Below are positions 41,300 through 41,555 of a stretch of 64,000 bases of DNA, piece by piece. This DNA comes from Escherichia coli O157:H7. GTDB taxonomy: Bacteria > Pseudomonadota > Gammaproteobacteria > Enterobacterales > Enterobacteriaceae. The notes beneath the pieces are model-generated. The model ran no database searches, was not told the DNA's origin, and worked only from the letters and a program-made list of their open reading frames with translations. The stretch lies in NCBI RefSeq assembly GCF_013167455.1, contig NZ_CP038328.1. One strand, 5' to 3'. The translations under genes were made by a program, and so were the position numbers. The number at the start of each line of letters is the position of its first letter. Positions within the stretch are counted from its first letter, which is position 1.

Positions 41300-41464
41300 T
41301 TAGTTAATTCTCTGTGTCGTGCGCGTCCCAGCTTGAAAAAATGTAATAATAGTGAAAGGTTTACTCATAAATGAGCGGCATTTTGCGTAAACCTGCGCCA
41401 GATGGCAACTTATTACAGCCATTGGCGGCACGCGTTGCTAATTCACGATGGTGATTTTATTTCC

Positions 41465-41480
41465 ACGCAAACGGTTTCGT
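41465..41480 (+). promoter_or_regulatory. PurR operator (PUR box) upstream of purL
   Basis: acgcaaacggtttcgt, a near-perfect palindromic PUR-box consensus, about 75 nt upstream of the purL ATG. Confidence 0.6.
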
Positions 41481-41555
41481 CAGCGCATCAGATTCTTTAT
41501 AATGACGCCCGTTTCCCCCCTTGGGTACACCGAAAGCTTAGAAGACGAGAGACTT

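What the first reader, a model, noticed from the sequence alone, without database searches (positions are those of the whole stretch)
41455..41490. Near-consensus PurR operator upstream of purL, with a weaker PUR-box-like site at glyA
acgcaaacggtttcgt (41465..41480) is an almost ideal PUR box upstream of purL, and a related site (51476..51491) lies in the glyA control region. Both purine and one-carbon metabolism genes in this window would be under PurR control.
Basis: partly seen in the sequence, partly recalled or inferred. Interest (0 to 1): 0.25.

Follow-up and report, generated by a model that had tools for sequence, protein, structure and literature searches.

The report
Known PurR operators at purL, glyA

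Summary
The window is E. coli chromosome, 100% identical to O157:H7 over the stretch tested.

- **Published sites.** Both 16-mers are letter-identical to the PurR motif instances under the purL and glyA ChIP-chip peaks of Cho et al. 2011 (PMC3159470).
- **Matrix score.** A matrix built from the 26 other published sites scores them 22.1 and 21.4 bits. The next best position in 64 kb scores 12.2 bits, which is chance level.
- **purL conservation.** The box is an island of invariant columns in all 21 Enterobacterales sampled. A strong box also lies upstream of purL in 7 of 8 Vibrionaceae and 5 of 6 Pasteurellaceae, and in none of 45 other gammaproteobacteria. That is the reported range of PurR orthologues.
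- **purL geometry.** The box ends 17 nt before a conserved TATAAT, so it covers the -35 position and would block RNA polymerase.
- **glyA.** The box is kept at a constant distance in 15 of 16 loci, upstream of the core promoter.

"Weaker at glyA" holds only for palindrome symmetry, not for matrix score or published occupancy. The window also holds a third published PurR target, glnB, whose candidate site is weak. Verdict: already known, low interest.

The parts
41465..41480 (+). PUR box, the PurR operator of purL: ACGCAAACGGTTTCGT. It is an imperfect 16-bp palindrome with a central CpG at positions 8-9.
   Evidence: Sequence read. It scores 22.1 bits on a matrix that excludes it. It is identical, as reverse complement, to the purL motif ACGAAACCGTTTGCGT in PMC3159470 Table 1. 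15 of 16 columns are invariant in 22 Enterobacterales sequences. The 50-mer around it is identical in 5402 of 5426 E. coli genomes.
41475..41480 (+). Hexamer TTTCGT at the -35 position of the predicted purL promoter, lying inside the PUR box.
   Evidence: It lies exactly 17 nt upstream of the TATAAT at 41498-41503. That spacing is constant in all 22 aligned Enterobacterales sequences. The consensus promoter scan did not call this promoter because the -35 is weak, so the assignment is an inference.
41498..41503 (+). Predicted -10 hexamer TATAAT of the purL promoter.
   Evidence: Perfect consensus. Five of its six columns are invariant across the Enterobacterales alignment; the sixth differs in one sequence. 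The transcription start was not mapped here.
41556..45443 (+). purL coding sequence (phosphoribosylformylglycinamidine synthase, 1295 aa), the regulated gene.
   Evidence: RefSeq annotation of the identical O157:H7 region. ORF list.
51476..51491 (+). PUR box, the PurR operator of glyA: AGGTAATCGTTTGCGT. The right half is consensus and the left half is degenerate.
   Evidence: Sequence read. It scores 21.4 bits. It is identical to the glyA motif in PMC3159470 Table 1. A box of at least 14.8 bits lies upstream of glyA in 15 of 16 loci, 113-144 nt before the ATG in the Enterobacterales, and most right-half columns (CGTTTGCGT) are invariant. The box is unchanged in the divergent E. coli genomes sampled.
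51533..51538 (+). Predicted -10 hexamer TATACT of the glyA promoter.
   Evidence: TA(T/C/A)ACT is invariant at five of six positions in 16 aligned sequences. This places the box centre near -61. An alternative pair, TTGTCA-16-AATGAT (51500-51527), was called by the consensus scan and would place the centre near -50. The start site was not mapped here.
51610..52863 (+). glyA coding sequence (serine hydroxymethyltransferase), the regulated gene.
   Evidence: RefSeq annotation.
49626..49641 (-). Weak candidate PUR box before glnB: ATGCAAACGATTTCAA on the + strand. It lies 68 nt before the glnB ATG and inside the last codons of glrR. Its membership is uncertain.
   Evidence: It is the third-best matrix hit in the window at 12.2 bits, but about 2 to 4 such hits are expected by chance. 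It is conserved only in Escherichia and Citrobacter. glnB is a published PurR target that the ChIP-chip study failed to detect.

Best explanation
Both 16-mers are operators for the purine repressor PurR, a LacI-family dimer that binds DNA only when loaded with hypoxanthine or guanine.

At purL the operator covers the -35 position of the promoter: the box ends 17 nt before TATAAT. Bound PurR therefore blocks RNA polymerase when purines are plentiful.

At glyA the operator lies upstream of the core promoter, with its centre at about -50 to -61, between the conserved upstream blocks and the -35 region. It therefore probably dampens rather than shuts off transcription, tying supply of one-carbon units and glycine to purine demand.

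Shown here: sequence identity to the published sites, matrix scores, conservation, and geometry relative to conserved hexamers. Taken from the literature: PurR binding in vivo. Inferred: the transcription start sites and the mode of repression at glyA.
For: - **Identity to published sites.** The sequences match the PurR ChIP-chip motif instances at purL and glyA exactly.
- **Matrix scores.** Leave-out scores are 22.1 and 21.4 bits, about 9 bits above anything else in the window. They rank 4th and 8th among 28 bound sites.
- **Chance expectation.** 0.002 to 0.004 sites per window are expected at these scores.
- **purL footprint.** The box is an island of invariant columns next to unalignable upstream DNA in 22 Enterobacterales sequences, with a fixed 17-nt gap to TATAAT.
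- **Taxonomic range.** A box of at least 16 bits lies upstream of purL in 21 of 21 Enterobacterales, 7 of 8 Vibrionaceae and 5 of 6 Pasteurellaceae. In 45 other gammaproteobacteria the best score is 8.9 bits. PurR orthologues are reported only in those three orders (PMC4052901).
- **glyA.** A box is present upstream of glyA in 15 of 16 loci, 113-144 nt before the start codon in the Enterobacterales.
- **E. coli population.** The purL 50-mer is identical in 5402 of 5426 genomes. purR itself is present in 5424 of 5426.
- **Known mechanism.** PurR-DNA complexes have solved structures, for example 1pnr and 1qpz. Cho et al. state that PurR sites generally overlap the -35/-10 region and act on initiation.
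Against: No binding or expression experiment was done on this strain.

The original footprinting papers (He 1990, Steiert 1990, He 1993) are not held in the library, so footprint boundaries and fold-repression values could not be checked.

The transcription starts are inferred from conserved hexamers only. The consensus promoter scan did not call the purL promoter and proposed a different -10 for glyA.

In the ChIP-chip study, purL was bound only with added adenine.
Confidence: 0.95

Rival explanations
1. The two matches are chance occurrences of a short palindrome-like word in 64 kb and have no function.
For: Dinucleotide-preserving shuffles reach 20 bits in 3.6% of windows. Sites near 12 bits, such as the glnB candidate, are expected by chance.
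Against: - Two sites above 21 bits are expected with P of about 1e-5 to 7e-4.
- Both lie in the promoter regions of published PurR targets.
- Both are conserved across genera while flanking DNA diverges.
Confidence: 0.01
2. The conserved block at purL is kept because it is a promoter element (the -35 region) or the site of a different LacI-family regulator such as RbsR, whose motif resembles PurR's. PurR binding would then be incidental.
For: - The box overlaps the -35 position.
- The two non-consensus bases of the box are as invariant as the consensus ones, which suggests a constraint beyond PurR affinity alone.
- PMC4052901 reports that PurR arose from RbsR and kept its motif.
Against: - Invariance spans all 16 bp, not one hexamer.
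- The block follows the PurR matrix on both half-sites.
- The box is present only in the three orders that have PurR.
- PurR occupies this site in vivo in K-12.

A dual role as operator and -35 element is compatible with the main explanation rather than a replacement for it.
Confidence: 0.03
3. The glyA box is bound by PurR but has no real regulatory effect on glyA. It would be a decoy or relic site, or it would act on the divergent hmpA gene instead.
For: - The box lies upstream of the core promoter rather than over it.
- Its left half varies between genera, and it has decayed to 7.5 bits in Ca. Pantoea persica.
- 57% of PurR-bound genes showed no significant transcript change.
- The box sits in the shared glyA-hmpA intergenic region.
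Against: - The position relative to the glyA ATG and the right half-site are conserved in 15 of 16 loci.
- RegulonDB rates the glyA site as cross-validated by independent strong evidence types.
- The box is about 194 nt from the hmpA start codon.
- From my own knowledge, not verified here: Steiert et al. 1990 reported roughly two-fold purR-dependent repression of glyA.
Confidence: 0.05

Closest known systems
E. coli K-12 purL PurR operator (He et al. 1990, J Bacteriol 172:4555; ChIP-chip motif at 2,693,642-2,693,657 in Cho et al. 2011)
   Same: The 16-mer is identical (ACGAAACCGTTTGCGT is the reverse complement of the window sequence). The gene and the position before purL are the same.
   Different: Nothing differs in the box. 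This strain background has a run of 6 C in the purL leader, where another E. coli genome has 7. That may account for a one-base offset I computed by hand against my recollection of the K-12 purL coordinate.
E. coli K-12 glyA PurR operator (Steiert et al. 1990, 1992; Lorenz and Stauffer 1996; ChIP-chip motif at 2,683,648-2,683,663)
   Same: The 16-mer AGGTAATCGTTTGCGT is identical and sits in the same glyA-hmpA intergenic region. The 50-mer around it is 100% identical in a K-12 MG1655 record.
   Different: Nothing was detected. The published footprint boundaries could not be compared because the papers are not held.
purF operator, the PurR-hypoxanthine-DNA co-crystal model (PDB 1pnr and related entries)
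   Same: The architecture is the same: a 16-bp pseudo-palindrome with a central CpG. The cvpA-purF site AAGAAAACGTTTGCGT scores 21.9 bits in the same matrix. Structures are listed.
   Different: The flanking half-site bases differ. No structure exists with the purL or glyA sequence as far as the chain-name search shows; the DNA sequences in those entries were not checked.
purB and purR intragenic PurR operators, which act as transcription roadblocks
   Same: They share the same repressor and the same motif family.
   Different: Those sites lie downstream of the transcription start and block elongation. The purL box overlaps the -35 position and the glyA box lies upstream of the promoter, so neither is a roadblock.

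Membership tests
PurR operator (PUR box) of the enterobacterial pur regulon | A 16-bp imperfect palindrome resembling ACGCAAACGTTTGCGT with a central CpG. | tested here: met
   purL has 2 mismatches and glyA has 3. Both have C8-G9. They are the only such matches in the window.
PurR operator (PUR box) of the enterobacterial pur regulon | A matrix score within the range of experimentally bound sites and above the genomic background. | tested here: met
   22.1 and 21.4 bits on a matrix that excludes them. They rank 4th and 8th of 28 in leave-one-out scoring. The next window hit scores 12.2 bits.
PurR operator (PUR box) of the enterobacterial pur regulon | Location in the promoter or 5' region of a purine-related gene. 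| tested here: met
   The purL box is 76 nt before the ATG and covers the -35 position. The glyA box is 119 nt before the ATG and upstream of the conserved -10.
PurR operator (PUR box) of the enterobacterial pur regulon | Conservation at orthologous promoters, restricted to taxa that have PurR. | tested here: met
   Upstream of purL the box is present in 33 of 35 loci from Enterobacterales, Vibrionaceae and Pasteurellaceae, and in 0 of 45 others. The range agrees with PMC4052901. Presence of purR in each sampled genome was not checked.
PurR operator (PUR box) of the enterobacterial pur regulon | The cognate repressor gene is present in the same organism. | tested here: met
   purR lies outside the window, but it is found in 5424 of 5426 complete E. 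coli genomes. The specific source genome of the window was not singled out.
PurR operator (PUR box) of the enterobacterial pur regulon | Physical binding of PurR with corepressor, and purR-dependent repression. | not testable with these tools
   Literature only. ChIP-chip peaks lie over identical sequences in K-12. RegulonDB describes the glyA site as confirmed. The original footprint papers are not held.

The most novel reading that the evidence does not exclude
The purL box, including its two non-consensus bases (G10 and C14), is strictly invariant from Escherichia to Arsenophonus and Budvicia. Together with its fixed 17-nt distance to TATAAT, this could mean the operator is under a second constraint. 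It may double as the promoter's -35 element, or it may be tuned to a set affinity, so that repressor strength and promoter strength cannot evolve separately. The glyA box, with one invariant and one free half-site, would be the contrasting 'tunable' design.
Probability: 0.2. Interest if true: 0.15.

Novelty: already known. Interest (0 to 1): 0.05.

Why it matters
It matters little for discovery. These are textbook operators of the E. coli purine regulon, characterised since 1990 and re-confirmed genome-wide in 2011.

The value here is as a calibration point:

- The first-stage reader recognised two real regulatory sites from raw sequence at exact coordinates.
- A matrix built from independent sites separates them from everything else in 64 kb by about 9 bits.
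- The cross-species comparison gives a clean positive and negative control: the box is present only in the three orders reported to have PurR.

Tried and rejected
- **Original binding papers.** I tried to read He et al. 1990 (PMC213288), Steiert et al. 1990 (PMC213358) and He et al. 1993 (PMC204761). None is held, so footprint limits, affinities and fold-repression values are not cited as verified.
- **Supplementary tables.** The expression tables of Cho et al. 2011 are not held.
- **glyA promoter geometry.** A full-text search returned nothing usable.
- **Promoter scan.** The consensus scan did not call the purL promoter and proposed a different -10 at glyA. I relied on conserved hexamers instead.
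- **RNA elements.** An Rfam scan of the whole window found no RNA family at either leader, so a riboswitch or leader-RNA reading was dropped.
- **glnB.** I considered the candidate site as a third operator. Its score is at chance level and it is conserved only in the nearest genera, inside glrR coding sequence, so I list it as uncertain.
- **Vibrio intragenic hits.** PUR-box-like 16-mers about 518 nt inside Vibrio purL come from codons for (N/E)-A-N-V-(T/S). They occur in only 3 of 8 Vibrionaceae loci and not in E. coli, so I rejected them as operators.
- **Correction to my notes.** The correct counts are 7 of 8 and 5 of 6.

Full report
**Observation.** ACGCAAACGGTTTCGT occupies 41465-41480 and AGGTAATCGTTTGCGT occupies 51476-51491. 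A search of both strands of the whole window for the perfect palindrome ACGCAAACGTTTGCGT, allowing 3 mismatches, returns these two positions and nothing else.

**Source and gene context.** The window is E. coli chromosome. A 301-base stretch around the first site is 100% identical to several O157:H7 genomes and is present in 5425 of 5426 complete E. coli genomes. The RefSeq annotation of the identical region gives this gene order:

- mltF on the minus strand
- purL (41556-45443, plus strand)
- qseE/glrK, qseG and glrR
- glnB (from 49709)
- hmpA on the minus strand
- glyA (from 51610, plus strand)

The first box therefore lies in the mltF-purL intergenic region, 76 nt before the purL ATG. The second lies in the hmpA-glyA intergenic region, 119 nt before the glyA ATG.

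**Is it more than chance?** I took the 28 PurR motif instances of Table 1 in Cho et al. 2011 (PMC3159470) and built a log-odds matrix from the 26 that are not purL or glyA.

| Position in window | Score (bits) | Source |
|---|---|---|
| purL box, 41465-41480 | 22.1 | |
| glyA box, 51476-51491 | 21.4 | |
| Next best distinct positions (49626 and 44934) | 12.2 | |

In leave-one-out scoring of all 28 published sites, purL ranks 4th and glyA ranks 8th. The exact score distribution under the window's base composition gives per-position probabilities of 1.7e-8 and 3.2e-8. That is 0.002 and 0.004 expected sites per window, and about 8e-6 for two such sites. Dinucleotide-preserving shuffles are more conservative. 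In 500 shuffles, 3.6% reach 20 bits somewhere, and about 3.9 positions per shuffle reach 12 bits. The two boxes are therefore far beyond chance, and anything near 12 bits is not.

**Identity with published sites.** Table 1 of Cho et al. lists, under PurR ChIP-chip peaks in K-12 MG1655, the motif AGGTAATCGTTTGCGT for glyA and ACGAAACCGTTTGCGT for purL. The first is the window sequence. The second is its reverse complement.

| Gene | Signal with adenine | Signal without adenine |
|---|---|---|
| glyA | 2.08 | 1.13 |
| purL | 1.88 | no peak |

The same paper counts purL among the previously characterised PurR-bound promoters. The RegulonDB evidence paper singles out glyA as the one 'confirmed' PurR site outside the core nucleotide pathways (PMC3548332). 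The original footprinting papers are not held in the library.

**Comparative evidence at purL.** One scan of the species-representative genome collection with the PurL protein returned 80 loci across the Gammaproteobacteria, with PurL identity from 98% down to 64%. I scored the 300 bp upstream of purL in each locus with the same matrix.

| Group | Loci with a strong box | Scores (bits) |
|---|---|---|
| Enterobacterales | 21 of 21 | 20.1-22.1 |
| Vibrionaceae | 7 of 8 | 16.2-25.1 |
| Pasteurellaceae | 5 of 6 | 21.8-25.1 |
| All others | 0 of 45 | 8.9 or less |

- In 17 of the 21 Enterobacterales the 16-mer is identical to the window. The other 4 differ only at position 1.
- The Vibrionaceae exception is Ca. 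Enterovibrio escacola. The Pasteurellaceae exception is Spirabiliibacterium. The family and order of Spirabiliibacterium, and of Orbaceae below, were checked.
- The 'other' group comprises Orbales, Alteromonadales, Shewanella, Aeromonas, Pseudomonadales and relatives.

This is the distribution that Ravcheev et al. report for PurR orthologues: Enterobacteriales, Pasteurellales and Vibrionales only (PMC4052901).

An alignment of the 170 nt upstream of purL from the 22 Enterobacterales sequences shows the box as an island. Fifteen of 16 columns are invariant. The sequence just upstream is essentially unalignable. A nearly invariant TATAAT begins exactly 17 nt after the box. Within E. coli, the 50-mer covering the box and the -10 is identical in 5402 of 5426 genomes. 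The one variant I inspected differs outside the box.

**Comparative evidence at glyA.** Sixteen of the loci also contain glyA. In 15 of them the best upstream hit scores at least 14.8 bits. In the 15 Enterobacterales loci the best hit lies 113-144 nt before the ATG; in Salinivibrio it lies at 190 nt. The site has decayed to 7.5 bits in Ca. Pantoea persica. In the alignment most columns of the right half (CGTTTGCGT) and the following AAA are invariant, while the left half varies, for example AGGTAAT, AGGAAAA, AGCCAAA and TGCCAAT. In E. coli the 50-mer is identical in 4613 genomes and differs by one to three bases in 811. In the two variants I fetched, the changes lie just 5' of the box and the box is untouched.

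**How it most likely works.** PurR is a LacI-family dimer whose DNA complexes with hypoxanthine or guanine have been solved; entries such as 1pnr and 1qpz are listed. purR is present in 5424 of 5426 E. coli genomes.

At purL, the last six bases of the box (TTTCGT, 41475-41480) sit at the -35 position relative to TATAAT (41498-41503). With a start site near 41510, the box centre is near -38. Bound repressor would exclude RNA polymerase. This matches the statement by Cho et al. that PurR sites generally overlap the -35/-10 region and act on initiation. The geometry is shown by sequence and conservation. The start site and the occlusion itself are inferred.

At glyA, the conserved -10-like hexamer is TATACT (51533-51538), which puts the box centre near -61. 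The consensus scan instead proposes TTGTCA-16-AATGAT (51500-51527), which would put it near -50. Either way the box is upstream of the core promoter. It sits between the promoter and two conserved upstream blocks that look like MetR sites. I therefore expect interference with upstream polymerase contacts or with activation, and a modest effect. My recollection of roughly two-fold repression (Steiert et al. 1990) is own knowledge, not verified here.

'Weaker' at glyA holds for symmetry and for evolutionary stability of the left half. It does not hold for matrix score or for published in vivo occupancy.

The window also contains glnB, a third published PurR target (He et al. 1993, cited). The only candidate site is ATGCAAACGATTTCAA (49626-49641). 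It lies in the last codons of glrR, 68 nt before glnB. It scores 12 bits, which is chance level, and is conserved only in Escherichia and Citrobacter. Enterobacter species instead carry a different 14-bit candidate about 41 nt before glnB. Cho et al. did not detect PurR at glnB.

**Alternatives.**

- **Chance** is excluded by the scores and the conservation.
- **Promoter element or another LacI-family protein.** The purL block could be kept only as a promoter element, or for a regulator such as RbsR. This fits poorly with invariance over all 16 bp, the match of both half-sites to the PurR matrix, restriction to PurR-bearing orders, and ChIP occupancy. A double role as operator and -35 element is plausible and would explain why the two non-consensus bases are as invariant as the rest.
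- **RNA element.** No Rfam family overlaps either leader.

**Verdict.** These are the known purL and glyA PurR operators, so the finding is already known and of low interest. Its main use is as a positive control for the scan.

Noticed in passing
window 49626-49641: ATGCAAACGATTTCAA is the only PUR-box-like sequence near glnB, a third published PurR target in this window. It lies in the last codons of glrR, 68 nt before the glnB ATG. It scores only 12 bits, which is chance level, and is conserved only in Escherichia and Citrobacter. Enterobacter species have a different 14-bit candidate about 41 nt before glnB.
   Followed up: partly
window 41508-41522: A C-rich tract (GCCCGTTTCCCCCC) just after the predicted purL transcription start is conserved across Enterobacterales. 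The C run differs in length within E. coli: 6 C here and 7 C in strain F637. Its function is unknown.
   Followed up: no
window 51394-51428: Two conserved blocks lie upstream of the glyA PUR box: TGAAAAATTTGCA (51394-51406) and TGAAAAGAAATCC (51416-51428). They resemble the MetR consensus TGAA-N5-TTCA as I recall it from my own knowledge. They lie in the shared glyA-hmpA control region.
   Followed up: no
window 45777-45924: The GlmY small RNA (Rfam RF00128, 147 bits) sits between purL and qseE/glrK.
   Followed up: no
window 3074-11217, 29261-30092, 32876-33090, 36503-36579: Other Rfam matches in the window: RyfD; a full rRNA operon with 16S, a tRNA, 23S and 5S (6209-11217); AsrC, which is antisense to rseC; the rncO leader; and OhsC next to the shoB toxin gene.
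   Followed up: no
L024 10518-10533, L025 3900-3915, L028 10518-10533: PUR-box-like 16-mers scoring 17-20 bits lie about 518 nt inside purL of three Vibrionaceae species. They come from codons for (N/E)-A-N-V-(T/S). They are absent from the other Vibrionaceae loci and from E. coli, so they are probably a coding coincidence rather than roadblock operators.
   Followed up: yes
L055, L048 and L012 (purL or glyA upstream regions): Ca. Enterovibrio escacola and Spirabiliibacterium pneumoniae lack the purL box although their families have it. Ca. Pantoea persica has a decayed glyA box. These may be cases of regulon erosion. Whether purR is present in these genomes was not checked.
   Followed up: no
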